Positions 11,867 to 50,091 are shown, counted from the first letter of the stretch. The stretch: DNA of 63,342 bases from Ignavibacteriales bacterium (GCA_018335975.1 JAGXRH010000002.1:1-63342), one strand, 5' to 3'. The notes: generated from the letters alone by a model not told the origin. Numbers and translations: made by a program.

Positions 11867-14281
11867 ATGCCAAAACAAGATAAAAAGAAAACAACGCCAT
11901 TGACTATTCGGAATGAAAACACCTTTTCATTTCTGAAAGATTGGCATTGCCTTGCGCTTCTTGGGTTGTTGCTCGTTATTTTTTTTCGGGAAATAATTTT
12001 TCAGAAAGCGTTTTTCTGGGAAGATTTTCTGTATTATTTCTATCCTGTTCGTAACTTTGCTACGGTTTCACTCGCCAACGGAGAAATTCCGCTGTGGAAC
12101 CCGTACACGTTTGGTGGAATGCCATTTCTGGCGGATATACAAACAACGGTCTTTTATCTTCCCAACTTTCTTCTTATCCCTTTCGTTTCAAACGGGCGGT
12201 TAGATGCGTGGTATCACGAGATGTTTCTTGTTGCGCATTTCTTTCTTGCCGGCGTTACGATGTTTTATTGCGCCCGCGCTTTCGGGCTTTCTCGTATTGC
12301 TGCAACGTTCTGTGCGTTCGTGTATATGCTTTCGGGATTCGCGATTGTTCATACGATTCACCAGGTCGTCTTAGTGCAAGCCGCGTGGTTTCCGCTCATC
12401 GTTCTCTTGTTCAGAAAAACGATGGAAGAACTTTCCCTCCTCTCGATGTCTGTATGCTCGTTCGTCCTTTCGATGTCGGTCTTAGGGGGACATCCGCAAT
12501 TCACGCTTTATATTTTCTTTTTTCTCTTCGTTTTTTTTCTGTACGAACAAATCCATTTCGTACGCGAGCAAAAAATTTCCGGAGACTCAATTTCCATCTT
12601 TCCGATACTCCGTCGTTCACTCCTTGCTGCGGGCGTTATACTCTTCGCGGTTGGTTTTTCGGCTATTCAACTTCTTCCAACATTTGAACTTGCAAATCTT
12701 TCCGTCCGTGAAGAAATTACCTTTGCAAAATCCTCTGAAGGACAATTATGGTGGCAGCAACTTATTACGTTTCTGGTCCCGAAATTTTATGGCAGTTCGA
12801 GCGCATTACAGGCGGAGAATCCGATTCGGTATTGGGGACCAGGAATGTACTGGAGTTTTTGGGAAACGTGTATTTATACCGGGGTTGCAGCGTTTTCCCT
12901 TGCAATTATTTCACTCTCGTTATGGAAGGAAAACCGCTTTGTTGTATTCTTCGGATGTTTTGGAGTGTTTGCGCTTTTGTATGCCCTGGGAGATAATTTT
13001 GTTCTTCATCCGTTTTTCTACAAGGTTGTTCCGGGATTCGATAAATTTCGTTCGATGGGACGGTGGGGATTTTTTGTAACATTTGCCGTTGCTTTGATGA
13101 GCGGGTTTGGGTTGCAGCAAATGCTTTCCAACGCAAAAGGAGAAAAGAAAAAGTTGTTTTCGCTCATCCTTTTAGTAATTTTTGGTATAACGTCAATACT
13201 GACGGTACTTGTTCATACCGGCGCGTTGAATGATTTCATTCATTGGCAGGCAAGCATTGGAGCGTTTAAGGTAGCACCCGCTGATTTGTTACATCCGCAT
13301 TCTCTCAAAATAGTAAAATCGCAAACGCTGGCCTCCTTTTTCATCGTCGGGATAAGTTGCGGAATTCTCTATCTTTTTCTCAACAACACCATTAAACCAA
13401 TCCTCGCCGTACTTCTCCTTTTCGCTGCGCAATTTATTGATATGCACGTTTTCGGGTTTGTTCAGAATAATGCGAAGGTGGACCCGGGAGCGTATTTTTC
13501 TGAGCGAAAAAATTATATTGAACAAATAAAAGGGGAGGAGAAAAACGGACTCTTTCGTGTGAATGCGAGAAATCGCGGAAGTATATTTCTTGACCGCAAT
13601 CAGGGAATGTTGGATAAAATATTTTTGATGGAGGGATACACTCCGCTTGCTTTACAACGCGTGCTCCCCCCCGCGGCAACTCCCGAAAAAGGATATCAAC
13701 TATTGAACACGAAATATCGTTTGAAAGTTGACACATTGCTCGTGCAGCGCCAAATGCGAACGCGAATGCGGTTTGAACTGGATTCGCTCTGTTTGCCGCG
13801 CGCGATGTTTGTTTATAACTACCGCGTGTTTGAAAACGAAAAAGCCGAAAGCACATTTCTTGCAGGAAAAGAGTTCAACCCGTGGGAAACAGTCGTGTTG
13901 GAAGAAAAGCCCCAGATAACTCTCGCCGATACAACACAAACATTAGATTGGAATTGGAGCATCGAGGAGTATCGAAATAACGCCATTCGGTTCAAAGGAG
14001 AAACACCCAAGACGGGTTTGTTTCTCGTGAGCGAAATTTTTTATCCCGGGTGGAACGCTTACGTTGATGGAAAACAAACGAAAATCTATCGCGCCGATTG
14101 GAGTTTGCGCGCAATTGTTGTTGATAAAGGCGAACACACAATCGAAATGAAATTTGAGCCTGAGCCGTATTATTCAGGAATGAAAATTTCACTCGCAACA
14201 CTTTTTCTTTGTGTTGCTATCGGTGGATTCGATTTTTATAGAAAAAGGAAATCTCCTTCCAATCCAAAATCTGAAATCTAA
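11867..14281 (+). CDS. YfhO-family polytopic membrane glycosyltransferase-like protein
   Basis: 804 aa with many TM helices. C-terminal soluble part ends FYPGWNAYVDGKQTKIYRADWSLRAIVVDKGEHTIEMKFEP plus a terminal TM, the hallmark of the YfhO family. Confidence 0.8.
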   Translation: MPKQDKKKTTPLTIRNENTFSFLKDWHCLALLGLLLVIFFREIIFQKAFFWEDFLYYFYPVRNFATVSLANGEIPLWNPYTFGGMPFLADIQTTVFYLPNFLLIPFVSNGRLDAWYHEMFLVAHFFLAGVTMFYCARAFGLSRIAATFCAFVYMLSGFAIVHTIHQVVLVQAAWFPLIVLLFRKTMEELSLLSMSVCSFVLSMSVLGGHPQFTLYIFFFLFVFFLYEQIHFVREQKISGDSISIFPILRRSLLAAGVILFAVGFSAIQLLPTFELANLSVREEITFAKSSEGQLWWQQLITFLVPKFYGSSSALQAENPIRYWGPGMYWSFWETCIYTGVAAFSLAIISLSLWKENRFVVFFGCFGVFALLYALGDNFVLHPFFYKVVPGFDKFRSMGRWGFFVTFAVALMSGFGLQQMLSNAKGEKKKLFSLILLVIFGITSILTVLVHTGALNDFIHWQASIGAFKVAPADLLHPHSLKIVKSQTLASFFIVGISCGILYLFLNNTIKPILAVLLLFAAQFIDMHVFGFVQNNAKVDPGAYFSERKNYIEQIKGEEKNGLFRVNARNRGSIFLDRNQGMLDKIFLMEGYTPLALQRVLPPAATPEKGYQLLNTKYRLKVDTLLVQRQMRTRMRFELDSLCLPRAMFVYNYRVFENEKAESTFLAGKEFNPWETVVLEEKPQITLADTTQTLDWNWSIEEYRNNAIRFKGETPKTGLFLVSEIFYPGWNAYVDGKQTKIYRADWSLRAIVVDKGEHTIEMKFEPEPYYSGMKISLATLFLCVAIGGFDFYRKRKSPSNPKSEI

Positions 14282-14289
14282 AATTGAAT

Positions 14290-15243
14290 ATGATTTCCAT
14301 CGTCATTCCACTTTACAACGAACAGGAAACAATTCCCGAACTTCATCGCCGATTAACCGACGCGATGAAAAAAGTCGGCGATGACTACGAAATTATTTTT
14401 GTGAACGACAACAGCAAAGATAATTCGTTTGAGGTCATGAAAAAGTTTTCGCAACAAGATTCACATTTGAAAGTGATTGACCTTGCAAGAAATTTCGGAC
14501 ATCAGGTTGCAATTTCGGCGGGAATTGATTCAGCAAATGGCGATGCGGTGATTTTAATGGATGGCGATTTGCAAGACCCGCCGGAACTTCTTCCCGAAAT
14601 GATTGCAAAATGGAAAAGCGGTTTTGAGGTTGTGTACACAATGAAAAAAAGCCGCAAAGAAAATGCGCTCAAACGTTTTGCGTTTCATTCGTTCTATGAA
14701 TTGATGCAGCGATTTTCTTCCATTCCCATTCCGATGGAAGCAGGAAATTTTTCGTTGATGGATAGAAAAGTAGTTTCTGTTCTTCAAACGATGCAGGAAC
14801 GAAATCGCTATCTTGCCGGAATGCGCGCGTGGATTGGTTTTCGGCAAACAGGAATTTGGTTCGATAGAGAAGCGCGATTTGCCGGTAAACCGCAGATGAC
14901 TATTTCGCGGCTCATCAATTTTGCGCTTGACGGACTTTTTTCTTTTTCCAATGCGCCGCTTCGCCTTGCAACATACGTCGGTTTTGGTTCTGCGTTCGTT
15001 GCGTTTCTCGGAATGTTGTATGTTCTCTACGCAAAACTTTTTACAAACACCGCGCTCATCGGCTGGGCTTCAACAATTCTTTCTATTTTATTTATCGGCG
15101 GAATGATTCTTCTCACTCTTGGAATCATCGGCGAATATGTAGGTCGAATTTATGACGAAGTAAAACAGCGGCCGTTGTATGTGGTTCGGGAAAAGATTGG
15201 ATTTGAAAAAAGCAGAGAGCGTGTAGCAGGGAGCATAGAGTAG
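14290..15243 (+). CDS. GT2 polyprenyl-phosphate glycosyltransferase (GtrB/CsbB/ArnC-like)
   Basis: ISIVIPLYNEQETI, FVNDNSKDNS, ILMDGDLQDPPE and two C-terminal TM helices. Begins 3-9 nt after the YfhO-like stop. Confidence 0.85.
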   Translation: MISIVIPLYNEQETIPELHRRLTDAMKKVGDDYEIIFVNDNSKDNSFEVMKKFSQQDSHLKVIDLARNFGHQVAISAGIDSANGDAVILMDGDLQDPPELLPEMIAKWKSGFEVVYTMKKSRKENALKRFAFHSFYELMQRFSSIPIPMEAGNFSLMDRKVVSVLQTMQERNRYLAGMRAWIGFRQTGIWFDREARFAGKPQMTISRLINFALDGLFSFSNAPLRLATYVGFGSAFVAFLGMLYVLYAKLFTNTALIGWASTILSILFIGGMILLTLGIIGEYVGRIYDEVKQRPLYVVREKIGFEKSRERVAGSIE

Positions 15244-15294: not shown

Positions 15295-16023
15295 TTGGAA
15301 GAATATCTTTATCCCCATTTCTATAAAATAGAAAACGAACATTGGTGGTTTGCAGCACGGCAGAAAATTTTATGGAATTTTATTTCTCAAAATTTATCGC
15401 TCACACAAAAATCAAAAGTACTTGATGTTGGCTGCGGAACCGGCGCAATTCTCGATACATTCACGAAACATTTTGAAGCGTACGGACAAGATGTTTCCGA
15501 ACAAGCAGTGGATTTTTGTAAACAACGCGGATTGCAAAACGTGTTTCGCGGTTATTTAAATGAACTTCCTTCGCATTTAAATGAATTCGATTTGGTTACT
15601 GCGTTCGATGTTGTTGAACACATCGAAGATGATTTTGGCGTGTTGAAACAAATGCACTCTTTATTGAAAACGAACGGAAATGTTTTGATTACTGTTCCTG
15701 CGTTTCAAATGCTGTGGGGAGCGCACGATGTTGTAACGCATCACAAACGGCGATACGTGAAAGCAACGCTGCGAGCCGTAATGGAGAAAGCAGGATTTGA
15801 AATTGTGCGGATGTCGTATTTCAACTTTTTTCTTTTTCCCGTTGCTGTTGCGCGAAGAATTCAAGCGAAGATTACAAAAGTTGACGAAGCAAAAGATTTG
15901 GAAATGCCATCGCCAAGATTGAACGGGATTTTGAAATCTGTTTTTGAAATGGAAAAAAATATTTTACCAACAATCAATTTTCCCGTTGGGCTTTCGTTGA
16001 TTGCAATTGGAAGAAAAAAATAA
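15295..16023 (+). CDS. Class I SAM-dependent methyltransferase
   Basis: EHWWFAARQ, motif I VLDVGCGTGA and DLVTAFDVVEHI. The track start is TTG, so the start is uncertain. Confidence 0.8.
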   Translation: MEEYLYPHFYKIENEHWWFAARQKILWNFISQNLSLTQKSKVLDVGCGTGAILDTFTKHFEAYGQDVSEQAVDFCKQRGLQNVFRGYLNELPSHLNEFDLVTAFDVVEHIEDDFGVLKQMHSLLKTNGNVLITVPAFQMLWGAHDVVTHHKRRYVKATLRAVMEKAGFEIVRMSYFNFFLFPVAVARRIQAKITKVDEAKDLEMPSPRLNGILKSVFEMEKNILPTINFPVGLSLIAIGRKK

Positions 16024-16106: not shown

Positions 16107-17225
16107 GTGAATGTAATTATAATCGGAACAGCATATCCACTTCGCGGAGGAATTGCGCATTACGTTGCGTTACTTGCAAAATATTTTCAGAAAGCAAAAC
16201 ACCACGTCGAAATAATTTCCTTCAAACGACAGTACCCCAAGATTTTATTTCCCGGAAAAACACAAGAAGAAAGCGGCGAAGAATTATTTTCCATTAAAGC
16301 GGAAATGTTGATTGATTCGATTAATCCGTTCAATTGGATTTCGGTGGGAAATGAAATTCGCAAACGAAAACCTGATTTGATTGTGTTCAAATACTGGCTT
16401 CCGTTTTTCGGACCGAGTTACGGAACCATCGCTGCCATCGCAAAACACAATAAACACACCAAAGTGTTGATGATTTGTGACAACATCATTCCCCACGAAA
16501 AACGCCCCGGCGATTCACTCTTCACTAAATACATTTTCCATTTTGCCGATTCCGCAATCGTGCAATCCGATTCAGTCGAAAATGATTTACTCACACTTTT
16601 TCCCAAACTTCCGTACAGAAAAATTCCGCATCCCGTGTATGAAATTTTCGGAGAAAGCATTCCGCAAAGCGAAGCGAGGAAAAAAATCGGAATTACTGAA
16701 ACCGAAAATGTGATTCTATTTTTTGGTTACGTTCGTGCATACAAGGGGCTTGATGTTCTTCTTCACACAATGAAAAATGTGGAAAACATAACCGCGCTTA
16801 TCGTTGGCGAGTTTTACGATAATGAAAAGCAATATCGTTCACTCGCAAAAGAATTGAATGTCGAAAACAAAGTGCGTTTCTTTTCAGAATACATTGCGAA
16901 TGATGAAGTGAAAAATTATTTCTCTGCATGCGACGCCGTTGTTCTTCCTTATAAAACTGCGACACAAAGTGGCATTGCGCAAATTGCTTTTAACTTTGAC
17001 AAGCCGGTGATTACAACGAATGTTGGGGGTCTTGCAGAAATTGTCCCTGATGGGAAAGCGGGATTTGTCGTTGAGCCGAATAATCCGGAACAACTTGCAA
17101 CCGCGATTTCAAAATTCTTTTCCGAAAACAAAAAAGAAGAATTTACCGAGCAAGTTAAAATAGAAAAGAAAAAATACTCGTGGGAAAATTTAGTAAAGGC
17201 GATGGAGGAACTCATGGTACGGTGA
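16107..17225 (+). CDS. Glycosyltransferase family 4 (GT-B fold)
   Basis: C-terminal region ...LPYKTATQSGIAQIAFNFDKPVITTNVGGLAEIVPDGKAGFVVEP is typical of GT4/Glycos_transf_1. GTG start in the track. Confidence 0.8.
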   Translation: MNVIIIGTAYPLRGGIAHYVALLAKYFQKAKHHVEIISFKRQYPKILFPGKTQEESGEELFSIKAEMLIDSINPFNWISVGNEIRKRKPDLIVFKYWLPFFGPSYGTIAAIAKHNKHTKVLMICDNIIPHEKRPGDSLFTKYIFHFADSAIVQSDSVENDLLTLFPKLPYRKIPHPVYEIFGESIPQSEARKKIGITETENVILFFGYVRAYKGLDVLLHTMKNVENITALIVGEFYDNEKQYRSLAKELNVENKVRFFSEYIANDEVKNYFSACDAVVLPYKTATQSGIAQIAFNFDKPVITTNVGGLAEIVPDGKAGFVVEPNNPEQLATAISKFFSENKKEEFTEQVKIEKKKYSWENLVKAMEELMVR

Positions 17226-17424: not shown

Positions 17425-20400
17425 ATGAAAAAGATTCTTTTTGCATTAATCATTGGTGTAGTGTTTATTTTCCACCTAACATTTGCACAAGTAAACACAA
17501 CACTTCCTTCCCAAAACGCGCTCAACATTCCCCGCGCAACAAATATCGAAGTTACATTTTCAAGCGATATCAATCCACAAACGCTGACGAATTCCTCTAT
17601 TCGTATTCACGGTTCGCAAAGCGGATTGCATACGAGCAGTATGTCATACAACAGTTTAGAGCGCAAAGCAACAATAAATCCCAACGAAGATTTTACCGTT
17701 GGTGAAGTAGTAAGTGTTTCACTTACTTCAGGAATTACAATTGCATCAAGTGGGGTGCCGATAGTTCCATATAGTTGGAGTTTTACGATTCAATATAATG
17801 TAAGCGCAGGAACGTTTGCTACGAAAGTGGATTATGGAACAGGAAATTCTCCTCATTCTGTGTACATCTATGATTTAGATGGTGATGGCGATGGAGACAT
17901 TATTACTGCTAATTGGAGTTCCAATACAGTTTCCGTTATAAAGAGTAATGGGGACGACACATACACAACAAAAGTGGATTATGTGACGGGAAATAATCCC
18001 TATTTTGCCTTCGTCAGCGATATTGACGATGATGGCGATGGCGATATTGCGGTTGCGAATAATGGTAGTAACACGGTTTCCATCCTGAAAAACAATGGGA
18101 ATGGGGTTTACAGTACAAAAGTTGATTATGCAACCGGGGGTAATCCAATCGCTATCTTCATCAGCGACATAGATGGGGATGGGGATGGGGACATTGCCAC
18201 AGCGAATTATGGTTCAGGCACAGTTACGATCCTGAAGAACAATGGTGACGGCACCTTTGCTTTGAAAGTGGATTATGCGACAGGAATTCGACCTTGGTCT
18301 GTTTATCTCAACGATGTGGATGGTGACGGTGATTACGACCTTGCTGTTGCGAATAGTAATTCAAACACGGTTTCCATTCTGAAGAACAATGGAGACGGCA
18401 CATACATATCGAAGGTAGATTATGCGACAGGAAATAATCCTTATTCTGTTTTTGTCAACGATATAGATGCTGATGGCGATGGCGACCTTGTTACTGCGAA
18501 TTATGGTTCCAACACGGTTTCCATTCTCAAAAATAATGGGAACGGCACTTACTCAACGAAAACGGACTATGCGGCGGGTGCCAATCCTGTACCTGTTTAC
18601 ATTAGCGATGTAGATGGCGATAGTGATGGTGACATTATTACCGCTAATTGGAGCTCCAATACGGTTTCCATCCTGAAAAACAATGGAAACGGGAGTTACT
18701 CAGCCAAAGTGGATTATGCAACGGGAAGTAATCCTCATTCTGTCATTATCGGCGATATAGATGCCGATGGCGATGGTGATCTTGTCGTTGCGAATCAAGG
18801 TTCCAACACGATATCTACTTTCAAAAATATCAATGGCACAAGTGCTTACACAATCACAGCAACTGCTGGAAGTAATGGCTCAATTTCTCCAAGTGGAAAT
18901 GTTAGAGTAAACTCTGGAAGTAACGAACAATTCACAATTTCACCAAACACAGGTTATCACGTTGATAGTGTAATTGTTGACGGTGTTCTTGTGGATTCCA
19001 TCAACAGTTACACTTTCTCAAATGTCAGTTCAAATCATACGATATCGGTGAAATTTACCGTTAATGAGGCTGCTATTGTAATCACACTCCCGGCAACTCA
19101 AATTGGCGGAACAAGCGCACGCCTCAACGGCTCAGTAAATCCCAATGGGATAAGCACCATAGTAACATTTCAATATGGTTTAACAACAAGTTACGGAAAT
19201 ACCATAGCCGCAACTCCCAGTCCCGTAACCGGTAATGATGCGGTCAGTGTAAGTGCGTTGCTTACAGGATTAACACAAAATACAGAATACCATTTCCGCG
19301 TTGTTGCTTCGAACGAATTTACTGCAACGGTATATGGCAACGACGAAACATTTACAACGACAAATTCAACGAACAATCCGCCAATGGCAATAGCAGGTTT
19401 CGATTCAGTGAAAATCAACACGTCAAAGTTACTCACACTGCAGGGAACCGACTCCGACGAGGGAGATAGTATTAGCGCATACGTTATCAAAACGTTTCCC
19501 GCACACGGATTTCTGCAAAGTTTTAACAGCGCCGCGGGAACGGTTGTGTACAGTCCCGAATTTTTTTATGCAGGAACGGATACCTTTACGTTCAGCGTGA
19601 AAGACGCGCAAAATATAGAAAGCACCCCCGCTCCGTTCATCGTTACCGTCTATCAATATATTGATTCAACGACATTCAGAACGTTTTCGCAGGAAGACTG
19701 GGTTACGCCGGCAGTAAAAATTCCTAAAAAAGGAAAACGCCCGATGCCAACCACGGGAAACGTTCTCGATACCATAATGACAAATGTTTATCCCAAACTC
19801 AAAGTTAAAACAAACCCGAATTTTCCCGGCGGTGTCATTCTCGGCATTAAACGAACCGACAGCGTAAAATCGTACGGATGGATTCGTCTTATCGGAAAAG
19901 GGAAAGATGTTCAAAAATTTTTACCGCATTCGGGAACTGCGCGCGGTTTCGATAAAATTCTCGGAAAAACTTTTTTGAAGGAAGTGAAAAACCCAAAAGT
20001 GGAAAGATACAACAACTCGTTGGTTGGAGAATTGCTTGCATTAAAGATGAATCTTGCAGCAAGCGCGGATAGCATTACCAACCCCGATTTTGTCAATCTT
20101 GTATTCGACGACCCATTACAGCCGAATCATCTTTTTGCGGGAAAAGCGTTGACAGAAATTGCGCGGTTTGCAGATACGACATTAACGTACTATAAACGGT
20201 ACTATACGGGAGCGACTCCTCCTGCAATGTACAACACAATGGCAATTGCTTTGCGCAGTATCAACGAAGCATTTCACGGTAAAAACATTGATACTATTAG
20301 TGTGAAACCGTTGCGATTACGGGATTCCGTGCGAATAGACAGCGTTTCATTTTTGCGGAAAGGTGGCAATAAAGAAACGGCCGATTTCATTCTTTTAGAA

Positions 20401-20682
20401 AATAATTCGTCATTGCCCGAAGAAATATATCTGCAAAATTATCCCAATCCCTTTAATCCCACGACGGCAATTCGTTTTCATCTTCCTTCAATGAGCATTG
20501 TATCGCTGAAAGTATATGACGTGCTTGGAAGAGAAGTTGCTACGATGTTAAACAATGATGAATTAAACGAGGGAGAACACGAAACACGATTTGACGCAAG
20601 CCATTTGCCAAGTGGAATTTATTTCTACAAACTTACAACGCAAACATATTCGCATACGAATAAACTGTTATTGCTTCGGTAA
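17425..20682 (+). CDS. T9SS cargo: Ig-like + 7-bladed FG-GAP/VCBS propeller + InlB-B-like + Fn3-like + Ig-like + unknown module + type-A sorting domain
   Basis: GGAG SD and signal peptide MKKILFALIIGVVFIFHLTFAQ. Seven 49-aa repeats of the form KVDYATGNNPYSVFVNDIDADGDGDLVTANYGSNTVSILKNNGNGTYST. YTITATAGSNGSISPSG...GYHVDSVIVDG follows. C-terminal LQNYPNPFNPTTAIRF...LPSGIYFYKL. Confidence 0.9.
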   Translation: MKKILFALIIGVVFIFHLTFAQVNTTLPSQNALNIPRATNIEVTFSSDINPQTLTNSSIRIHGSQSGLHTSSMSYNSLERKATINPNEDFTVGEVVSVSLTSGITIASSGVPIVPYSWSFTIQYNVSAGTFATKVDYGTGNSPHSVYIYDLDGDGDGDIITANWSSNTVSVIKSNGDDTYTTKVDYVTGNNPYFAFVSDIDDDGDGDIAVANNGSNTVSILKNNGNGVYSTKVDYATGGNPIAIFISDIDGDGDGDIATANYGSGTVTILKNNGDGTFALKVDYATGIRPWSVYLNDVDGDGDYDLAVANSNSNTVSILKNNGDGTYISKVDYATGNNPYSVFVNDIDADGDGDLVTANYGSNTVSILKNNGNGTYSTKTDYAAGANPVPVYISDVDGDSDGDIITANWSSNTVSILKNNGNGSYSAKVDYATGSNPHSVIIGDIDADGDGDLVVANQGSNTISTFKNINGTSAYTITATAGSNGSISPSGNVRVNSGSNEQFTISPNTGYHVDSVIVDGVLVDSINSYTFSNVSSNHTISVKFTVNEAAIVITLPATQIGGTSARLNGSVNPNGISTIVTFQYGLTTSYGNTIAATPSPVTGNDAVSVSALLTGLTQNTEYHFRVVASNEFTATVYGNDETFTTTNSTNNPPMAIAGFDSVKINTSKLLTLQGTDSDEGDSISAYVIKTFPAHGFLQSFNSAAGTVVYSPEFFYAGTDTFTFSVKDAQNIESTPAPFIVTVYQYIDSTTFRTFSQEDWVTPAVKIPKKGKRPMPTTGNVLDTIMTNVYPKLKVKTNPNFPGGVILGIKRTDSVKSYGWIRLIGKGKDVQKFLPHSGTARGFDKILGKTFLKEVKNPKVERYNNSLVGELLALKMNLAASADSITNPDFVNLVFDDPLQPNHLFAGKALTEIARFADTTLTYYKRYYTGATPPAMYNTMAIALRSINEAFHGKNIDTISVKPLRLRDSVRIDSVSFLRKGGNKETADFILLENNSSLPEEIYLQNYPNPFNPTTAIRFHLPSMSIVSLKVYDVLGREVATMLNNDELNEGEHETRFDASHLPSGIYFYKLTTQTYSHTNKLLLLR
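17824..18852 (+). repeat. Seven tandem 147-nt coding repeats (FG-GAP/VCBS blades)
   Basis: Repeat starts AAAGTGGATTATG... recur at 17824 and 17971, and thereafter every 147 nt. The protein units are about 49 aa. Confidence 0.9.
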
Positions 20683-20833: not shown

Positions 20834-21727
20834 ATGAACACAATAAAATGCGTCGTTTGCACATCTCAAAAACTTGGTGAAGTCCCTTTCGGATATATCT
20901 TTAAAGGAAAATGGCTGCAAGCAGTTGAATGTAAAAACTGTGGAATGATATTCATTCATCCTCAGCAAACATCGCAGGAACTTGTTGAATTATATTCTCG
21001 CGAATACTTTGAAGGGGGCGATTATCGTTGTGGACACGCGGAAAATTGTTTTGAGGAAGAAGGCGAAAGAATCGTTAGTCCAATCTTGGTACAAAAAATT
21101 CAATCGTTGCAACCGAGGGGAAAATTTCTTGACATTGGTTGTGCAGGTGGACAAATGCTCAACGCGATTCGGGAAAGAGGATACGAAACATACGGCGTAG
21201 AACTTTCCAGTGAGGCGGCTCAAAGCGCGCGGGATAAGTTTGGGCTGAACGTTATTACAGGTGATATTCTTTCGGCAAAGTATGAAAACAATTTTTTCGA
21301 TGTTGTGTTTATGGGAGATGTTCTTGAACACGTTCCTAATCCGGTTGAGGTGATGAAAGAAATTCACCGTATTACAAAACCGAAGGCACTCGTCGTTATT
21401 TTATGTCCCACGCAAACAAACACACTCTTCTCACGATTCGGTTTTTCCGTTTATACCCTTTTAGGAAAAAACGCCACAGTTAATTTACCACCATATCATC
21501 TCTTGGAATTTCGTCCTGTGAGTATGAAGAATTTTATGCGTCAAGCAGGATTTTCTGTAATTGATGCACAGGGTACAACGATGAAGCCATCTGAAATAGC
21601 GCAACGGAGTTCTTTTCTGCAAAACATTGCAAAGAAAGTTTTTCAGTATCCGAATTATATACTTACCACCAGGTTCAATATTTTTGGTGATAGAATTGAA
21701 CTATTCGCAAGAAAATCGGTGAAGTAA
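20834..21727 (+). CDS. Class I SAM-dependent methyltransferase with N-terminal 4-Cys zinc ribbon
   Basis: CVVCTS...ECKNCGMIF, motif I FLDIGCAGGQ and DVVFMGDVLEHV. Confidence 0.8.
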   Translation: MNTIKCVVCTSQKLGEVPFGYIFKGKWLQAVECKNCGMIFIHPQQTSQELVELYSREYFEGGDYRCGHAENCFEEEGERIVSPILVQKIQSLQPRGKFLDIGCAGGQMLNAIRERGYETYGVELSSEAAQSARDKFGLNVITGDILSAKYENNFFDVVFMGDVLEHVPNPVEVMKEIHRITKPKALVVILCPTQTNTLFSRFGFSVYTLLGKNATVNLPPYHLLEFRPVSMKNFMRQAGFSVIDAQGTTMKPSEIAQRSSFLQNIAKKVFQYPNYILTTRFNIFGDRIELFARKSVK

Positions 21728-21891: not shown

Positions 21892-24120
21892 ATGAAACAG
21901 ATATTTAGAGCAATCGAAATGATGTGCGTAATATTTCTTTTCGTACAACTATTGTACGGGAACACTGGATCGTTACGTGACTTTTATGAAAAAACAGAAT
22001 ACGCAGTAGGTCAACATCCTTATGTTGTTGCTTCTGCCGATGTCGACTTAGATGGTGATGCAGATATAGTAGTTTCGAATTGGTATTCATTCTTTATCAC
22101 GGTATTGTTTAATAACGGCGATGGAACATTCCCCCAAAAAGTAAATATTCCCACGCTTGGTCAAGCAACTCACGTGATTACAACGGATATAGATAATGAT
22201 GGTGACGATGATTTAGTCGTTGCAAGCGCAAATTACCCAAGTGGTGGACAGGGCTCGATTACAATTATGATAAATAATGGTAATGGTACTTTTCAAAATC
22301 CCTATGGATATTATGTGAGTAGCGCAGCATCCACCGTTTGCGCAGGTGATTATGATAATGACGGGGATAAAGATTTAGCAGTTACAAATTGGTATGATGC
22401 CACGGTTACAATCTTTTTCAATACGGGTGGGGGCTTGTTTACAAGAGGGGGCGATTATCTCGTTGGTGCCTATCCCCATGAGTTGGTTGCTGCAGATTTT
22501 GATGGTGATGGGAACCGAGATATTGCAACGGCAAACACAAACTACGGTGGGGATAACGGATCTGTTACCATTCTAAAAAATACCGGACAAGGAATATTTG
22601 AGTTAATCGCAACCATAACCGTCGACGAACACCCACAGGCACTATCAGCTGCGGACATTGATAGCGATAATGATATAGATATCGTTATTGCCAATCGAAA
22701 CTCCAACAATGTTTTTATATTGAAAAATGATGGCGGGGCATTTGAAATCTCATCCACGGTAGAGGTTGGTGTGTGGCCTACAGGAATTACCCCCGGAGAT
22801 TTTAACCAGGACGGCTACGTGGACTTCGCCGTAACCAATTCTTATGCCTACACGGGGATTCTTGGCACTATCTCTTATTTAACAAACAACGGTAATGGCG
22901 AATTTTCTGAAGAATCGTTTGTTAATGTAAACAGCGGTCCACGTACGCTTGCAAGAGGCGACCTGAATGGCGATGGATTTATGGATCTGGCAGTAACAAG
23001 TTGGGATGAAAATTCAGTTACTGTCTTATTAAACGAAAACAGAAAATTTCGGACGCTGAAAGCAGACACCTCGCTCTCGAAGAAAGCGAAGAAAATTTCT
23101 ATCGTAAACGCAACATTCCAAACATCACCCAATCACGGTACGGTCTTACAGGCGTTATTCAACAAAATAGGAAAAAGCGGTGCGCCATTATTAGGTATTC
23201 CTCAGAATGATAAAGCATTAGCAAAAAAATATGCATGGATTCACTATAAGAACGCACAAGAACTGAGTAAACTCTATTTAGGAGAACATAATGGTCCTGC
23301 ATATCCACTTGACTATACAAGGAAGAACGATAAAATTCGAGGGAAATTGAAAGGGGCGCTAAAACCAACGAGTAAAAAGTACAACAACATTGCCATAGAA
23401 CAGGGCGTTCTGTTCAAAGTCAACCTTCTTGCAAGCGCCTACGGAATAACTCCACGTGGATTAGGAAATGTCGTTTTTGATTCTGCATATATATTGGGTG
23501 GTAGAAATCTAAAAGGATATTCCCTTGCAGCAATTTCTCTTTACTTTGACAGTTTAATGACGTATTGGGAACTTTTCGGTATAAATAATCAAGCGGCATA
23601 CGAGAATCTTGACAAATTTTCTCGGTATTTTCTTAAAGGAATTAATGAAGGATTCTCAACCGACTTAAATCCAAGCAGTTACACGCTTAACGCAAAATCG
23701 TACATAGACAATAAACCATACCCTTTGTTTTTGAAAGGAACCAAAGATGCCGTCCTATTAGGATTTCTTAGTAACGTAACGGGAAAAACAGATGAATCGA
23801 AATTGATAGGGAGCGAGATGCCCCGTGTTGAAATCCCTACAAAGATTGAGTTGAATCAAAATTATCCGAACCCATTCAACCCCACAACAACGATAGAGAT
23901 TGGGGTTCCTGAAGAATTAGATGGAGTTGTGGCAACGATGAAAATTTTCAATACGCTTGGCCAAGAAGTGTTCTCTCCAATAGAGAATGAACAACTTGAA
24001 TATGGAACGAGAAGCGTAATAATCAATGCCTCAACCCTCCCAAGCGGTACATATTTTTATCGTTTACAAACGTCAAACAAAAAGTTTGTATTGTCGAAAA
24101 AAATGTTGTTGCTAAAATAA
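21892..24120 (+). CDS. T9SS cargo: 7-bladed FG-GAP/VCBS propeller + unknown module + type-A sorting domain
   Basis: GGAG SD and signal peptide. Seven Ca-loop-like motifs: DVDLDGDAD, DIDNDGDDD, DYDNDGDKD, DFDGDGNRD, DIDSDNDID, DFNQDGYVD, DLNGDGFMD. C-terminal LNQNYPNPFNPTTTIE...LPSGTYFYRL. Confidence 0.9.
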   Translation: MKQIFRAIEMMCVIFLFVQLLYGNTGSLRDFYEKTEYAVGQHPYVVASADVDLDGDADIVVSNWYSFFITVLFNNGDGTFPQKVNIPTLGQATHVITTDIDNDGDDDLVVASANYPSGGQGSITIMINNGNGTFQNPYGYYVSSAASTVCAGDYDNDGDKDLAVTNWYDATVTIFFNTGGGLFTRGGDYLVGAYPHELVAADFDGDGNRDIATANTNYGGDNGSVTILKNTGQGIFELIATITVDEHPQALSAADIDSDNDIDIVIANRNSNNVFILKNDGGAFEISSTVEVGVWPTGITPGDFNQDGYVDFAVTNSYAYTGILGTISYLTNNGNGEFSEESFVNVNSGPRTLARGDLNGDGFMDLAVTSWDENSVTVLLNENRKFRTLKADTSLSKKAKKISIVNATFQTSPNHGTVLQALFNKIGKSGAPLLGIPQNDKALAKKYAWIHYKNAQELSKLYLGEHNGPAYPLDYTRKNDKIRGKLKGALKPTSKKYNNIAIEQGVLFKVNLLASAYGITPRGLGNVVFDSAYILGGRNLKGYSLAAISLYFDSLMTYWELFGINNQAAYENLDKFSRYFLKGINEGFSTDLNPSSYTLNAKSYIDNKPYPLFLKGTKDAVLLGFLSNVTGKTDESKLIGSEMPRVEIPTKIELNQNYPNPFNPTTTIEIGVPEELDGVVATMKIFNTLGQEVFSPIENEQLEYGTRSVIINASTLPSGTYFYRLQTSNKKFVLSKKMLLLK

Positions 24121-24244: not shown

Positions 24245-25087
24245 TTGCTTCCCCTTGTCTATATTATCGTTCTCAACTGGAATGGGAAAGACGACACCTT
24301 AGAGTGCTTACGCTCGTTACAAAACATAGACTATAAAAACTACAAAATTCTTGTTGTTGACAACGCTTCTGAAGATGGAAGCGTAGGCGCGATTCAGTCG
24401 GAGTTTCCTAACATCGAAATTCTTGTAAATGCAAATAATCTGCGTTTTGCCGGAGGAAATAATGTTGGTATAAAATATGGGTTACAACATGATGCGGATT
24501 ATATTTTGTTATTAAATAATGACACTGCTGTTGATGGCAGATTTCTTTCTTCTCTGATTCATTGTATAAATGAGACTAAAGACGCTGGAATAGCAGGAGC
24601 CAAAATTTTTTATTTTTTTGATAAGCGAAGAATTTGGTACGCAGGCGGAAACTTGAATTTTGCTACTGGAAGTTTTAAGCACCGAGGAATTCGGCAACGC
24701 GAAAGTGAGCTATACAACGCCGTTGAAGAGGTTGATTACATTACGGGCTGTTGTATGTTAATAAAACGTGAAGTAATAGAACGAGTTGGCATGTTAGATG
24801 AATCATATTTTATTTATGGAGAAGACGCTGATTATTGTTTACGCGCAAAAAATGCTGGCTATAAACTGATGTACATCCCATCTGCAATTGTGTATCACAA
24901 GGTTTCTGTTAGTTCCGGAGGAAATTTTTCGTGGTTTAAGAATTGGAACAAATTGAAAAGTAATTTGCGTTTACTTTGGAGATATGCGAAATGGTATAAT
25001 TGGATTGTCATTCCGTTTACGTTTCCTGTTGGAATCATTGTTGGTTATTACACGGCGAAACGTGAGTCGAAAGAAATCGGAAAGTAG
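24245..25087 (+). CDS. Glycosyltransferase family 2
   Basis: YIIVLNWNGKDDTLECL, VVDNASEDGS, LLLNNDT and YGEDADYC, as in rhamnosyltransferase-like GT2 enzymes. TTG start in the track. Confidence 0.8.
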   Translation: MLPLVYIIVLNWNGKDDTLECLRSLQNIDYKNYKILVVDNASEDGSVGAIQSEFPNIEILVNANNLRFAGGNNVGIKYGLQHDADYILLLNNDTAVDGRFLSSLIHCINETKDAGIAGAKIFYFFDKRRIWYAGGNLNFATGSFKHRGIRQRESELYNAVEEVDYITGCCMLIKREVIERVGMLDESYFIYGEDADYCLRAKNAGYKLMYIPSAIVYHKVSVSSGGNFSWFKNWNKLKSNLRLLWRYAKWYNWIVIPFTFPVGIIVGYYTAKRESKEIGK

Positions 25088-47697: not shown

Positions 47698-50091
47698 TTA
47701 CCTCATCAATACCATTTTCTTTACGGCGATATACGTTCTTTCATCATCAATAGAGGCGGCAGTAATACGATAGTAATAAACCCCGCTTGGAAGAATTGAA
47801 GCGTCAAATTCAACTTCGTGCTCGCCTTCCTCCAACTCACTTTTGTTGAGAAGTGTTGCAACATCTTGTCCGAGAATGTTATAAATTTTCAGCGTTACAA
47901 TACTCGTAGCCGAAATCTGAAAACGAATAGTCGTCATCGGATTAAATGGATTCGGAAAGTTTTGGCGCAGCATAAAGGTTGGGGGATGCGTTGCGTTTTG
48001 TTCGCCGCTTGTTCTTCGGGTCGAAGTGGTGGTTGCGGGACGGAGATAGGGAATCTCTGCTAATCCACGAGTTCCCTTAATGCGAAGGGTTTTGGAAAAA
48101 CTATTGGTATCTATTGGTCCTTCAAAGGCGTTGTTTATGTTATCAATCGTAGAGTCCAAATTTTTGAAAACAGAAGAGTCGGCAAAAAAATGCTTTCGGG
48201 TTCCGCTTGCAACGTCAAGAGCGTAGTACCCCATCATCATTGTGTCGGCGAGCGATGCAATCTTCCGAATAGTTTTTCCGTTAACGAGCGGGTTATCTGT
48301 TCCGTCGTTGTAAGTAAGTTCGCCAAAATCTACAGGAGTTATTCCTAAATCACTTGCGGCAATGTTGAGTTTTAATGCCATCATATTTGTGAGCAGACGG
48401 TTGTTTTGCAATCTTCGGAGGATAACATTTTTTTCTCCGACAAGCGGGGCTTTCTTTCCGGGATCCATACGGTCAAATCCGCGGGGGGAACCATTATGGA
48501 TTTTATCGAGACTTTTTCCTAACGTAATAAGCGCTTGCTTTTTATCGCGGAAAAGCGCCCAGCCATAGTGGGAAGAACTGTCCGTTCGTTTCACGCCAAC
48601 CAGCAACCCTTCCGGACTATCGAATCCTTTTTTCAAAAAAACTTCGGTTAGTACATTAATTCTATTGGGAAGAGGTAAACCGAGAATATTCGTTTTTGGT
48701 GGCTGCGTAATTCTTTTTCCCGCAACTTCTGCGGATGCCTTCCTCCAACTATGTTTTTTAATCTTTGCCACTCCCGCTTTTCGCGCCCAAGCAGTGATGG
48801 TTACAGTTGCCCCGGAGTCAAGCGGAGAATCGAAAATGACAGTCCATTTCGAAGTAATTTTTTTTGAAGTATCTCTTAAAGAAACCTGAGATGGGGGAAA
48901 AGTAAAAGGTTTCGTATATCTTGCGGTATCGAGAAACAGAGTGAAGTCAATGTTGAGAACTGCTGCCTGCGGTAAGATATTGACAATCTCATACGTAAAC
49001 TTTGCTCTATCCGGTTTCGGCAGAACAGCCCGCCCCGCAGCCCCCTTGTTATCCTTATCTAAAGCCAGGAGATTCGCATCGAATGAACGGTAACGAAGAG
49101 TATCAATAGTAAATCCCACAAGCAAAACGGTATCGGCGCTGGTTAATGCATTATGGAAAAAAATGAGTTCAGTACTGTCTGCGCCTGTTGTTGTGGGCGT
49201 TAGTGTGATGGTAAAAGTTTTCGTGTCGTTTGGATAGAGCGAATCACTTCCGGTTGTCGCAATAGAAAAATCATCGTGTATTACGTAAACCGATTCGAGA
49301 ATAAGCAGCGACCCGCCTGTGTTGGTAACAGTAAAAGATTTTGTTTTACTTGTCCGATAAGGAAGCGTATCAAAATTGAGGATGGAGGTATTCGCGGTGA
49401 AAACGGGGTTCAGAACTCTGCCGCGTACGTTTAAATAAACCTGTCCGGAAAATGTATTATTATAAAAAGTAATAATTGCACTTTTTTCTCCTGCAGGTAA
49501 TTGAGGAACAAAGTCAATATAAAACACTTTTTGGGTTTGTGGTGGGAGTGTGTAATTTAAAGGTAGAACGGTGAACAACGGGCTATTACTTGTAACCGTA
49601 GTTATCTTGAGCGTATCCAAACTGGGATTCGAGACAACGACACTATCAAAATCGGACATCCACAAATATGTTTCGCCCATCTCAAGCGTATCAGCGCTTA
49701 ACGATATTTGCGGGTCAATGGCAGTACCGCATACCATAATGGAATCGGGAGAGCCGGTTGCGTTGTGTGTGAACCGAATGAACGCAGTATCTGTTCCCCG
49801 GACAACCGGCGAGTAGGCAATTGTTATCTTAAGATTTTGGAAGGCGGGAATGGTAATATCTTCCGATGGTGCAACCGCAAAGTTCGGTTTCGAGGAAGTT
49901 ATAGCATAAACATCGAGCGAGAAATTACCGGTGTTCGAGACAACGAGACTATCGGTTTTGCTATTTCCGGCATAGAGAGTGCCGAAGGAAAGTGATTGCG
50001 GAGAAACAGAAAATTGTGGTTGCGCGTTTATCCCGGAGAGAGCAAAGAAAACGCAAATCATCACCATTAAAAAGCGAGGGAAGGGTATCAT
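47698..50091 (-). CDS. T9SS cargo: three ASH/choice-of-anchor-D-like Ig repeats + unknown module + type-A sorting domain
   Basis: Start moved to MIPFPRFLMVMICVFFALSGINAQ. Repeats of the form SLSFGTLYAGNSKTDSLVVSNTGNFSLDV. C-terminal LRQNFPNPFNPMTTIRF...LPSGVYYYRI. Confidence 0.85.
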   Translation of the reverse strand: MIPFPRFLMVMICVFFALSGINAQPQFSVSPQSLSFGTLYAGNSKTDSLVVSNTGNFSLDVYAITSSKPNFAVAPSEDITIPAFQNLKITIAYSPVVRGTDTAFIRFTHNATGSPDSIMVCGTAIDPQISLSADTLEMGETYLWMSDFDSVVVSNPSLDTLKITTVTSNSPLFTVLPLNYTLPPQTQKVFYIDFVPQLPAGEKSAIITFYNNTFSGQVYLNVRGRVLNPVFTANTSILNFDTLPYRTSKTKSFTVTNTGGSLLILESVYVIHDDFSIATTGSDSLYPNDTKTFTITLTPTTTGADSTELIFFHNALTSADTVLLVGFTIDTLRYRSFDANLLALDKDNKGAAGRAVLPKPDRAKFTYEIVNILPQAAVLNIDFTLFLDTARYTKPFTFPPSQVSLRDTSKKITSKWTVIFDSPLDSGATVTITAWARKAGVAKIKKHSWRKASAEVAGKRITQPPKTNILGLPLPNRINVLTEVFLKKGFDSPEGLLVGVKRTDSSSHYGWALFRDKKQALITLGKSLDKIHNGSPRGFDRMDPGKKAPLVGEKNVILRRLQNNRLLTNMMALKLNIAASDLGITPVDFGELTYNDGTDNPLVNGKTIRKIASLADTMMMGYYALDVASGTRKHFFADSSVFKNLDSTIDNINNAFEGPIDTNSFSKTLRIKGTRGLAEIPYLRPATTTSTRRTSGEQNATHPPTFMLRQNFPNPFNPMTTIRFQISATSIVTLKIYNILGQDVATLLNKSELEEGEHEVEFDASILPSGVYYYRITAASIDDERTYIAVKKMVLMR

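What the first reader, a model, noticed from the sequence alone, without database searches (positions are those of the whole stretch)
19675..20418. Unrecognised ~240-aa module shared by three T9SS cargo proteins, always directly before the sorting domain
In the three largest secreted proteins, the segment between the recognisable head domains and the C-terminal sorting domain is homologous, although the heads differ. The heads are:
- 17425-20682: FG-GAP propeller plus Ig/Fn3 domains.
- 21892-24120: FG-GAP propeller only.
- 47698-50091: three ASH-like Ig repeats.

Shared blocks, in the same order:
- Entry motif FRTF / FRTL / YRSF.
- GIKRTDSVKSYGWIRL / GVKRTDSSSHYGWALF / (B) ALAKKYAWIHY.
- HSGTARGFD / HNGSPRGFD / HNGPAYPLD.
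- YNNSLVGELLALKMNLAAS / QNNRLLTNMMALKLNIAASDLGITPVDFGEL / YNNIAIEQGVLFKVNLLASAYGITPRGLGNV.
- GKALTEIARFADTTLTYY / GKTIRKIASLADTMMMGYY / GYSLAAISLYFDSLMTYW.
- SINEAF / NINNAF / GINEGF.

Coordinates are 19675-20418, 23041-23845 and about 48050-49105 on the minus strand. The third copy carries an insert of about 105 aa after the entry motif. I cannot match these motifs to any named family.

A conserved, apparently helical module reused under variable heads and fused to the T9SS signal could be a stalk or adaptor. It could also be a surface-attachment or glycan-acceptor element, or an effector domain in its own right.
Basis: seen in the sequence. Interest (0 to 1): 0.7.

Follow-up and report, generated by a model that had tools for sequence, protein, structure and literature searches.

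The report
Uncatalogued basic module before T9SS signal
Three secreted surface proteins of this uncultured Ignavibacteria-type bacterium share a real protein domain that Pfam, NCBIfam and the PDB do not list; in several hundred related protein clusters it sits directly in front of the type IX secretion sorting signal, and it is strongly positively charged, so it most likely holds these proteins on the negatively charged cell surface, although this is not proven.

Summary
The three T9SS cargo proteins at 17425-20682(+), 21892-24120(+) and 47698-50151(-) share a homologous segment just upstream of their type A sorting domains. Pairwise BLASTP E-values are 5e-13, 7e-23 and 3e-6, and shuffle z-scores are 10.7 to 36.

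A profile of the three copies finds 759 protein clusters among 1.84 billion representatives. In 148 of the best 150 hits the module ends 105-121 residues before the C-terminus and a CTD motif follows.

No Pfam-A, NCBIfam, PDB-sequence or Foldseek match covers it. All located relatives with a clear label come from Ignavibacteria-lineage MAGs.

The anatomy is:
- a basic N-terminal arm starting at [YF]R[ST]F;
- a ~210-residue alpha/beta core, modelled by AlphaFold2 at pLDDT 88;
- a proline-rich disordered linker;
- the CTD.

Some complete genes are only signal peptide + module + CTD. The module is basic (pI about 9.4), while heads and CTDs are acidic (about 4.7).

My best reading (about 35%) is a cell-proximal pedestal that docks on anionic outer-membrane glycolipid. 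Rivals are a glycan acceptor, a binder of external ligands, a spacer or folding aid, and an enzyme. It is a new domain family within a known cargo architecture, of moderate interest.

The parts
19675..19740 (+). Protein A (17425-20682), aa 751-772: basic N-terminal arm of the module, beginning with the entry motif FRTF. This is the short form, with no beta-sandwich.
   Evidence: In 38 short-form relatives the [YF][RK][STGA][FLIVM] pattern lies 16-33 aa upstream of the core. The arm aligns with the first ~30 aa of long-form modules.
19741..20388 (+). Protein A aa 773-988: alpha/beta core of the module.
   Evidence: The profile hit covers aa 773-981/988. BLASTP to B gives 5e-13 and to C 7e-23. 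No Pfam or NCBIfam hit.
20389..20679 (+). Protein A aa 989-1085: linker plus T9SS type A C-terminal sorting domain.
   Evidence: PF18962 at aa 1006-1081 (E 1.2e-11) and TIGR04183 (E 4.7e-11).
23047..23127 (+). Protein B (21892-24120), aa 386-412: arm beginning with FRTL. Short form.
   Evidence: B (P0004) falls in the short-form clade.
23128..23805 (+). Protein B aa 413-638: the most divergent copy of the core.
   Evidence: The profile hit covers aa 413-630/638. BLASTP to A gives 5e-13 and to C 3e-6. Shuffle z is 20.3 and 10.7.
23863..24117 (+). Protein B aa 658-742: T9SS type A CTD.
   Evidence: PF18962 at aa 658-737 (E 2.5e-10).
49009..49092 (-). Protein C (47698-50151; the likely true start is ATG 50091), aa 354-381 in the 817-aa frame: arm beginning with YRSF.
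   Evidence: Model residues 1-33 precede the sandwich strands. The arm consensus is YRSFxxDSxAxDxDxxGKxGKxVKxK.
48676..49008 (-). Protein C aa 382-492: beta-sandwich subdomain lying between arm and core.
   Evidence: The model shows strands only, with pLDDT mostly 73-95. Jackhmmer finds it in 64/105 relatives. Its HMM hits 82/150 relatives once each, never in heads. It is unrelated to the CTD (hhalign probability 0.2%).
48031..48675 (-). Protein C aa 493-707: alpha/beta core.
   Evidence: The profile hit covers aa 493-707. Model residues 146-360 have pLDDT mostly above 90.
47701..48030 (-). Protein C aa 708-817: disordered proline-rich linker (aa ~715-731) plus T9SS type A CTD.
   Evidence: Model residues 367-375 have pLDDT below 50, and the CTD beta-sandwich spans residues 391-467. 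PF18962 at aa 732-800.

Best explanation
The segment is a genuine, autonomous and so far uncatalogued protein domain cassette of Ignavibacteria-lineage bacteria.

**Anatomy.**
- A basic ~25-30-residue arm starting at [YF]R[ST]F.
- An optional ~110-residue beta-sandwich.
- A ~210-residue alpha/beta core.
- A ~25-residue proline-rich flexible linker.
- A type A T9SS sorting domain.

The module and its CTD appear to be inherited together and combined with very different acidic passenger 'heads', or with none.

**Proposed mechanism.**
1. The protein crosses the inner membrane by Sec. A signal peptide is present (shown).
2. It is exported by the T9SS through its CTD (inferred from the CTD).
3. The CTD is cut off in the flexible linker, as in studied T9SS cargo (inferred by analogy).
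4. The module then becomes the cell-proximal end of the mature protein.
5. Its strongly positive surface, unique within these otherwise acidic proteins, docks on the anionic outer-membrane glycolipid or polysaccharide layer.
6. It thereby acts as a pedestal or retention module that keeps the passenger on the cell surface and orients it (inferred).

**Confidence by part.** That this is a real, uncatalogued domain that always precedes the CTD: about 0.9. That it works as an anion-binding pedestal: about 0.35.
For: **Homology and family size.**
- The three window copies are homologous.
- The family has 759 clusters at E<=1e-3 and 620 at E<=1e-10.

**Fixed position.**
- The module ends 105-121 aa (median 116) before the C-terminus in 148/150 hits, and a PNPF-type CTD motif follows.
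- 38/38 full-length members carry PF18962.

**Fold.**
- The AlphaFold2 model of C aa 349-817 has pLDDT 88 and pTM 0.75.
- The core is above 90, the linker is below 50-60, and the CTD is a separate sandwich.

**Autonomy.**
- Some members are only signal peptide + module + CTD: P0092, P0069, P0114, P0080, P0109, P0031 and P0111 (P0100 is similar but has about 40 extra residues before the arm).
- P0069 is a complete gene inside a 29 kb contig.

**Charge.**

| Region | Median pI | Note |
|---|---|---|
| Core | 9.4 | net +6; 81% above pI 8.5 |
| Sandwich | 9.4 | |
| Arm | 10.0 | net +5 in 30 aa |
| Heads | 4.7 | |
| CTDs | 4.7 | |

As a control, the 210 aa before the CTD of cargo without the module in the same loci have a median pI of 5.1 (n=11). 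The same region of module-bearing cargo has 9.2 (n=35).

**Co-inheritance with the CTD.** CTDs that follow modules are 53% identical to each other, against 43% to other CTDs.

**Heads look like adhesins.** They are Ig-like or repeat arrays in proteins of up to 4268 aa.

**Cleavage site.** In studied T9SS cargo, cleavage occurs in the flexible linker before the folded CTD, followed by C-terminal glycolipid attachment (PMC11969387).

**No catalytic signature.** Only G519, S600 and F676 are invariant. The candidate His552 is H in 87/122 and Q in 25/122. Lys594 is also R, N or Q.
Against: - There is no experiment, and no structural or sequence similarity to any known LPS- or glycan-binding anchor domain.
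- Head-less members have nothing to display, so the module must also have value of its own.
- The many conserved Asn, Asp, Ser and Trp residues (N496, N499, D524, W531, N584, N596, S600, D636, N673, D681) would also fit a specific ligand pocket, metal sites or glycosylation sequons.
- The positive charge could be aimed at external anionic substrates rather than the cell's own surface.
- Whether Ignavibacteria cleave and anchor type A cargo as Porphyromonas does is unknown.
- No conserved gene neighbour supports any partner.
- I had no atomic coordinates, so I could not check whether the basic or conserved residues cluster on one face.
Confidence: 0.35

Rival explanations
1. Glycan-acceptor cassette. 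The module presents conserved Bacteroidota-type O-glycosylation sequons, D-(S/T)-(A/I/L/V/M/T), so that every protein carrying it is decorated with the cell's O-glycan close to the membrane. This could occur alone or together with anchoring.
For: - Three of the most conserved Asp residues are each followed by S/T and then a hydrophobic residue. At C positions 524, 636 and 681 the full sequon is present in 50%, 82% and 74% of 122 cores.
- Cores carry 3.7 sequons on average, against 0.66 after shuffling.
- Sequon density per 100 aa is 1.79 in cores (0.31 expected), 0.95 in heads (0.51 expected) and 0 in CTDs (0.28 expected, 9180 residues).
- The sequon definition is from PMC8550257.
- Genes A and B sit inside a glycosyltransferase, methyltransferase and flippase cluster. 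The head-less member P0069 lies next to a Bac_transf initiating sugar transferase.
Against: - Any conserved motif exceeds a shuffle, so these triplets can simply be structural.
- Position 636 lies inside a predicted helix (model residue 288).
- The third position at site 524 is often S or P.
- The glycan-gene context is not general: it is absent.
- It is unknown whether Ignavibacteria use this sequon.
- This reading does not explain the basic charge.
Confidence: 0.17
2. Autonomous binding domain for an external anionic ligand, such as an acidic polysaccharide, extracellular DNA or a mineral surface. The module itself would be an adhesin or lectin, and the heads would add further specificities.
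For: - Head-less members exist.
- The module is basic.
- It has conserved aromatic and Asn/Asp residues typical of sugar-binding sites.
- Nuclease-type secreted proteins lie directly upstream of two members: Endonuclease_1 + CTD and Exo_endo_phos.
Against: - Its invariant position at the cell-proximal end, behind heads of up to about 4000 aa, is an odd place for a domain meant to reach external substrates.
- There is no similarity to any CBM or lectin family.
- The nuclease neighbours occur in only 2 of about 8 contexts examined.
Confidence: 0.18
3. Passive structural element or secretion and folding aid. It could be a spacer lifting heads above the LPS layer, an intramolecular chaperone, or an extension of the T9SS signal that improves recognition of very large cargo.
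For: - Its position and spacing relative to the CTD are constant.
- It is co-inherited with the CTD.
- Many carriers are giant repeat proteins.
Against: - Other T9SS cargo in the same window and loci lack it, so secretion does not need it.
- Head-less members exist.
- About 40 well-conserved positions and a conserved charge are more than a spacer requires.
- The flexible linker separates it from the CTD in the model.
Confidence: 0.15
4. A novel enzyme, for example a Ser/Lys or Ser/Asp hydrolase, or a self-processing domain that releases the heads.
For: - S600 is invariant.
- D636 is conserved in 120/122 and N584 in 115/122.
- K594 is K or R in 93% of cores.
- The fold has no known relative, so an unknown activity cannot be excluded.
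Against: - No His is conserved: H552 is replaced by Q in 20% of cores.
- K594 is replaced by N or Q in 7%.
- S600 sits at the end of a helix with no nucleophile-elbow motif.
- There is no hit to any peptidase or hydrolase model or structure.
Confidence: 0.07

Closest known systems
T9SS type A cargo architecture with CTD cleavage and C-terminal glycolipid (A-LPS type) anchoring, as in Porphyromonas gingivalis, Tannerella forsythia and Prevotella intermedia
   Same: - The layout is signal peptide, passenger, flexible linker and a Por_Secre_tail/TIGR04183 CTD at the extreme C-terminus.
- In the studied species, cleavage occurs in the linker before the folded CTD (PMC11969387).
   Different: - No conserved ~230-350-aa basic domain immediately before the CTD turned up in the T9SS papers I searched.
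- In those species the domain preceding the CTD varies between cargo (my own knowledge).
- Here one cassette recurs in hundreds of protein clusters of a single lineage.
- Processing and anchoring in Ignavibacteria have not been studied.
Non-covalent cell-surface anchoring domains of S-layer and surface proteins: SLH domains, and the N-terminal LPS O-antigen-binding domain of Caulobacter RsaA (from my own knowledge of these families)
   Same: This is a functional analogy only. Each is a dedicated domain at the cell-proximal end of a large surface protein that binds an anionic cell-envelope glycan. Each is reused under varied outer parts, and SLH domains are typically basic.
   Different: - No sequence match: Pfam and NCBIfam and PDB profiles.
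- No fold match.
- Those domains work with type I or Sec secretion, not T9SS, and lie N-terminal in RsaA.
- Binding has not been tested for this module.
Ig-like domain immediately preceding the CTD in gingipain RgpB and other Porphyromonas cargo (my own knowledge)
   Same: It is a folded domain directly upstream of the linker and CTD. The optional beta-sandwich here gives weak Foldseek matches to Ig-like, PapD, RhoGDI and NPC2 sandwiches.
   Different: - The defining part here is an alpha/beta core with no fold match.
- The sandwich lies N-terminal to the core, not next to the CTD.
- The sandwich is absent from the short subfamily.
NCBIfam 'choice-of-anchor' domains, which are conserved domains found next to various C-terminal sorting signals
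   Same: The concept is the same: a conserved module that recurs together with sorting signals. Protein C's heads do match choice_anch_D.
   Different: - The module itself matches no choice-of-anchor model.
- In the data seen it pairs with only one anchor type, the T9SS type A CTD.

Membership tests
T9SS type A C-terminal sorting domain (PF18962 / TIGR04183) | About 70-85-aa beta-sandwich at the extreme C-terminus that matches the CTD models | tested here: met
   This holds for the proteins but not for the module. CTD hits cover A 1006-1081, B 658-737 and C 732-800. The module ends about 20-25 aa upstream and is a separate fold in the model.
T9SS type A C-terminal sorting domain (PF18962 / TIGR04183) | The module is an N-terminal extension or duplication of the CTD (a 'long CTD') | tested here: not met
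   - hhalign of the sandwich alignment against the CTD alignment gives probability 0.2%.
- The core is alpha/beta.
- The 'long CTDs' of P. intermedia are 7-stranded sandwiches, not extra domains (PMC11969387).
Any Pfam-A (2025 copy) or NCBIfam (release 20) family | A significant HMM match over the module | tested here: not met
   - No family covers A 745-1000, B 380-655 or C 349-730 at E<=0.1.
- None recurs in 17 module sequences at E<=10.
- None covers the module in 38 full-length members.
Any solved structure (PDB) | Sequence-profile or fold similarity of the core | tested here: not met
   - Profile searches: best E is 0.06-0.8, all spurious.
- Foldseek gives 0 hits at E<=1e-3, and every listed hit is a beta-sandwich.
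- BFVD gives only hits at whole-model TM 0.09-0.18, several of them named CTD proteins, and none to the core.
- Limits: the query was a three-domain model, only 50 rows are shown, and AFDB was not available.
Bacteroidota general O-glycosylation substrates | Presence of the D-(S/T)-(A/I/L/V/M/T) sequon | tested here: met
   Three conserved sites carry the sequon in 50%, 82% and 74% of 122 cores. Cores average 3.7 sequons against 0.66 after shuffling, with density 1.79 per 100 aa against 0.31 expected.
Bacteroidota general O-glycosylation substrates | Glycan actually attached at these sites, and an O-glycosylation locus present in the genome | not testable with these tools
   This needs glycoproteomics. 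The window has a GT, MT and flippase cluster around A and B, but no recognised O-oligosaccharyltransferase was identified, and the context is not conserved.
SLH or RsaA-type envelope-glycan anchoring domains | Sequence or fold membership | tested here: not met
   There is no SLH or other anchor-domain Pfam hit. No such chain appears among the PDB profile or Foldseek matches.
SLH or RsaA-type envelope-glycan anchoring domains | Binding of the producer's own anionic envelope glycan | not testable with these tools
   Only indirect evidence exists: the module's pI is about 9.4 against about 4.7 for the rest of the protein, and about 5.1 for the equivalent region of cargo without the module.
Ser/Lys or Ser/His/Asp hydrolases, including self-cleaving intramolecular chaperone domains (Peptidase_S74) | An invariant catalytic residue set and a model match | tested here: not met
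   - S600 is invariant, but K594 is K in only 83% (R, N and Q also occur) and H552 is H in 71%.
- There is no peptidase model or structure match.

The most novel reading that the evidence does not exclude
Ignavibacteria use a lineage-specific basic domain cassette, fused to the T9SS signal, as a general non-covalent anchor that fixes secreted proteins to anionic LPS. The cassette may itself be O-glycosylated. This would be a surface-attachment strategy that complements or replaces the sortase and A-LPS route known from Porphyromonas. Head-less copies could form a basal layer of the cell coat.
Probability: 0.25. Interest if true: 0.65.

Novelty: new variant of a known kind. Interest (0 to 1): 0.45.

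Why it matters
How T9SS cargo is retained on the cell surface is understood only for a few Bacteroidia, where a sortase attaches it to anionic LPS. If this cassette is an anchoring module, it would show that a sister lineage solved the same problem with a built-in binding domain.

Three practical consequences follow:
- It would give a simple sequence marker for surface-displayed rather than released proteins in Ignavibacteria metagenomes.
- It would provide a portable 'display tag' for engineering.
- Defining the family fills an annotation gap. About 760 clusters at 50% identity are currently labelled only 'hypothetical', 'T9SS type A sorting domain-containing', or named after their heads.

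Tried and rejected
- **Word-index homologue search with module A alone**: no hits. This was a sensitivity limit of the method, because the exhaustive profile search then found 759 clusters.
- **First AlphaFold2 run on a 3-sequence alignment**: pLDDT 50.6, unusable. Foldseek with this model gave only noise, E>=2.9.
- **Genome-contig scans.** The single-protein scan found nothing. A 7-sequence alignment worked.
- **Conserved gene neighbourhood**: none found beyond other T9SS cargo genes and local synteny. I therefore rejected the idea that the polysaccharide cluster around A and B is a general partner.
- **Sandwich as a duplicated CTD:** rejected (hhalign probability 0.2%).
- **Literature**: nothing describes this module. 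The 'long CTD' of P. intermedia is a different thing.
- **P0167** (360 aa, no signal peptide) looked at first like a minimal form. I rejected it as probably a mis-called start inside a larger gene.


Full report
**1. The observation**

The three ORFs are present: A = 17425-20682(+), 1085 aa; B = 21892-24120(+), 742 aa; C = 47698-50151(-), 817 aa. For C, the signal peptide and the database gene call (P0002, 797 aa) fit an ATG start at 50091. Each protein has a signal peptide and ends in a T9SS type A sorting domain (PF18962 / TIGR04183).

- A: Big_5, FG-GAP repeats, Flg_new_2, an fn3-like domain and Big_9.
- B: FG-GAP only.
- C: three ASH / choice-of-anchor-D Ig domains.

No Pfam-A or NCBIfam model touches the stretch between heads and CTD.

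With the CTD removed, the three segments still align significantly. BLASTP used composition-based statistics. The shuffle test used 300 shuffles per pair, which scored about 36 +/- 5.

| Pair | BLASTP E-value | Smith-Waterman score | z against shuffles |
|---|---|---|---|
| A-B | 5e-13 | 142 | 20.3 |
| A-C | 7e-23 | 225 | 36.1 |
| B-C | 3e-6 | 96 | 10.7 |

A profile of the three copies finds exactly these three in a six-frame scan of the window. Three of the six CTD-bearing ORFs in the window carry the module. The only slips are the order of the motif columns (A / C / B) and the description 'apparently helical'.

**2. A sizeable family, always in front of the CTD**

The 3-sequence profile was searched against 1.84 billion representative proteins. 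It gives 759 clusters at E<=1e-3, 620 at E<=1e-10 and 114 at E<=1e-30.

- In 148 of the best 150 hits, the match ends 105-121 residues (median 116) before the C-terminus, and the tail contains the PNPF-type CTD motif. The two exceptions are truncated fragments.
- All 38 full-length members scanned have PF18962.
- Their heads vary: Flg_new_2 (12), SdrD_B (10), CarboxypepD_reg (10), SpaA (8), HYDIN/ASH Ig (5), Big_3_5, tyrosinase and SGL.
- Database names are 'hypothetical', 'T9SS type A sorting domain-containing', or derive from the heads: VCBS, tandem-95, beta-helix, SdrD B-like.
- Carrier proteins reach 4268 aa.

**3. Anatomy**

Alignment of relatives and an AlphaFold2 model of C aa 349-817 define the parts. 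The model used a 38-sequence alignment and has mean pLDDT 88 and pTM 0.75.

- **(i) Arm.** About 25-30 residues, with the consensus YRSFxxDSxAxDxDxxGKxGKxVKxK.
- **(ii) Beta-sandwich.** About 110 residues.
- **(iii) Alpha/beta core.** About 210 residues, pLDDT mostly above 90, about 36% helix with much ordered coil.
- **(iv) Linker.** Proline-rich, pLDDT below 50-60.
- **(v) CTD.** A separate beta-sandwich.

In head-less members it follows the signal peptide within a few to about 20 residues, directly in P0092.

Jackhmmer finds it in 64 of 105 relatives. Its HMM hits 82 of the best 150, once each and never in the heads, and it is unrelated to the CTD (hhalign probability 0.2%).

The entry motif lies 16-33 aa before the core in 38 'short' members and 121-140 aa before it in 57 'long' members. 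On a neighbour-joining tree of 122 cores, 38 of the 39 short forms fall in one clade, with a minimum of two state changes. Short and long are therefore two old subfamilies. The window holds both: A and B are short, C is long.

CTDs that follow modules are more alike (53% mean identity) than they are to other CTDs from the same loci (43%). This suggests that module, linker and CTD travel together. The sampling behind this comparison is biased.

**4. No known relative**

- Pfam-A and NCBIfam give nothing, even at E<=10, on 17 module sequences.
- PDB sequence-profile searches give only spurious hits at E>=0.06.
- Foldseek of the confident model against the PDB gives no hit at E<=1e-3. All listed hits are Ig-like or CTD-like beta-sandwiches, such as the PorZ CTD, PapD, RhoGDI and NPC2.
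- BFVD gives only weak hits (whole-model TM 0.09-0.18), several of them named CTD proteins, and nothing that matches the core.

There are limits to this. The query was a three-domain model, only 50 rows are shown, and neither AFDB nor HH-suite database searches were available. 'No known relative' therefore holds only at HMMER and Foldseek-PDB sensitivity.

**5. Where it occurs**

The window's proteins are on metagenome contigs. Its SecD is 55-60% identical to SecD of named Ignavibacteriae/Ignavibacteriales MAGs. The closest module-bearing relatives, P0003 and P0005, are from Ignavibacteriales MAGs.

A scan of one genome per species found 33 loci. All are in MAGs labelled Ignavibacteria, Ignavibacteriales, Ignavibacteriota, 'Chlorobiaceae' or 'Bacteroidota', except two. 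One is a 2.5 kb contig binned as Euryarchaeota, probably mis-binned. The other is an unclassified bacterium. Several MAGs have two or three copies, some in tandem. The scan used two peptide patterns, so it is not a census.

**6. Clues to function**

- **(a) Head-less genes exist.** Some members are signal peptide + module + CTD, 451-506 aa. P0069 is a complete gene inside a 29 kb contig. The module is therefore an autonomous unit, not merely a connector.
- **(b) The module is a basic island in acidic proteins.**
  - Core: median pI 9.4, net +6, 81% above pI 8.5.
  - Sandwich: median pI 9.4.
  - Arm: pI 10.0, net +5 in 30 residues.
  - Heads and CTDs: pI 4.7.
  - Control: the equivalent 210 residues before the CTD in cargo without the module, from the same loci, have median pI 5.1 (n=11), against 9.2 (n=35).
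- **(c) Conservation is not enzyme-like.**
  - Only G519, S600 and F676 are invariant.
  - W531, D636, N584, L612 and P495 are nearly so.
  - His552 is Q in 20% of cores, and Lys594 is sometimes N or Q.
- **(d) Three conserved sequon-like triplets.**
  - Three conserved Asp residues are each followed by Ser/Thr and then a hydrophobic residue. This matches the Bacteroidota O-glycosylation sequon D(S/T)(A/I/L/V/M/T) (PMC8550257).
  - The full sequon is present in 50%, 82% and 74% of cores at the three sites. Cores average 3.7 sequons against 0.66 after shuffling.
  - Sequon density per 100 aa is 1.79 in cores, 0.95 in heads and 0 in CTDs.
  - This could equally be structural, because one site lies inside a helix.
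- **(e) Gene context is uninformative.** A and B lie in a glycosyltransferase, methyltransferase and flippase cluster, and P0069 lies next to an initiating sugar transferase. Other members sit among unrelated genes or other T9SS cargo.

**7. Most likely mechanism**

*Shown:* Sec signal peptide; type A CTD; flexible linker; a compact basic module immediately before the linker; acidic passengers.

*Inferred from studied T9SS systems:* The CTD is removed in the flexible linker, and the new C-terminus may be attached to a glycolipid (PMC11969387). This would make the module the cell-proximal end of the mature protein.

*Inferred from the charge contrast:* The module docks on the anionic LPS or polysaccharide layer and acts as a pedestal or retention module.

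I put this at about 35%. The rivals are:

| Rival reading | Probability |
|---|---|
| O-glycan acceptor cassette (not exclusive of anchoring) | about 17% |
| Binder of external anionic ligands | about 18% |
| Passive spacer or secretion/folding aid | about 15% |
| Enzyme or self-processing domain | about 7% |

**8. Comparison with what is known**

The overall cargo architecture is standard for T9SS. What is new is a conserved, lineage-specific, basic pre-CTD cassette with an alpha/beta core that has no detectable relative. Functionally it most resembles envelope-glycan anchoring domains of surface-layer proteins, such as SLH and the LPS-binding domain of RsaA. That resemblance is an analogy from general knowledge, because both membership tests failed. 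I found no description of this module in the searchable literature.

**9. Verdict**

The function remains open. I rate it as a new domain family, that is, a new variant within a known kind of system, of moderate interest (0.45). The interest would rise if the anchoring or glycan-acceptor role were demonstrated.

Noticed in passing
window 9051-29629: A long polysaccharide/glycan biosynthesis cluster, with the two module-bearing cargo genes A and B embedded in it. It contains GT2 (14284-15243, 24245-25087), GT4 (16107-17225, 28481-29629), class I methyltransferases (15295-16023, 20834-21727), two FkbM methyltransferases (26656-28484) and a Wzx-like flippase (25093-26424). It also contains an 804-aa membrane protein (11867-14281) whose C-terminal end matches YfhO.
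   Followed up: partly
window 50091-50151 (-): The longest ORF of protein C starts at GTG 50151.
   Followed up: yes
window 43130-43954 (-), 50527-52335 (+), 62619-63342 (-): Three further T9SS type A CTD proteins lack the module. The first two have no recognisable Pfam head domain. The third is cut by the end of the window.
   Followed up: partly
window 46586-47335 (-) and 20834-21727 (+): A class I SAM methyltransferase lies directly downstream of both module genes C and A. This pairing was not seen next to family members in other genomes.
   Followed up: partly
L013 1-11805; L030/L032 (contig SCUC01000356); L035 4522-11598; L016/L031 (contig CAVQPS010000007): Module-bearing genes often occur as neighbouring or tandem paralogues in other Ignavibacteria MAGs, many of them encoding giant proteins of more than 2000 aa.
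   Followed up: no
L034 5173-6837: A distant member (38% identity, unclassified MAG) ends after 'LYQN', which is the first residues of the CTD. This is probably a frameshift, assembly error or pseudogene rather than a form without a CTD.
   Followed up: partly
L033 (CAIYYO010000177, 2.5 kb): A module-bearing contig is binned in a 'Euryarchaeota archaeon' MAG. It is almost certainly a mis-binned bacterial contig.
   Followed up: no
L039 6559-7941 and L040 6381-7748: Nuclease-type genes sit immediately upstream of two family members: Endonuclease_1 + CTD in L039 and Exo_endo_phos in L040. This is only 2 of about 8 contexts examined and may be coincidence.
   Followed up: no
CTDs of 108 family members (last 85 aa each): The D[ST][AILVMT] triplet is completely absent from the CTDs: 0 in 9180 residues, against about 26 expected from composition. 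It is about twofold enriched in the heads and about sixfold in the module core.
   Followed up: partly
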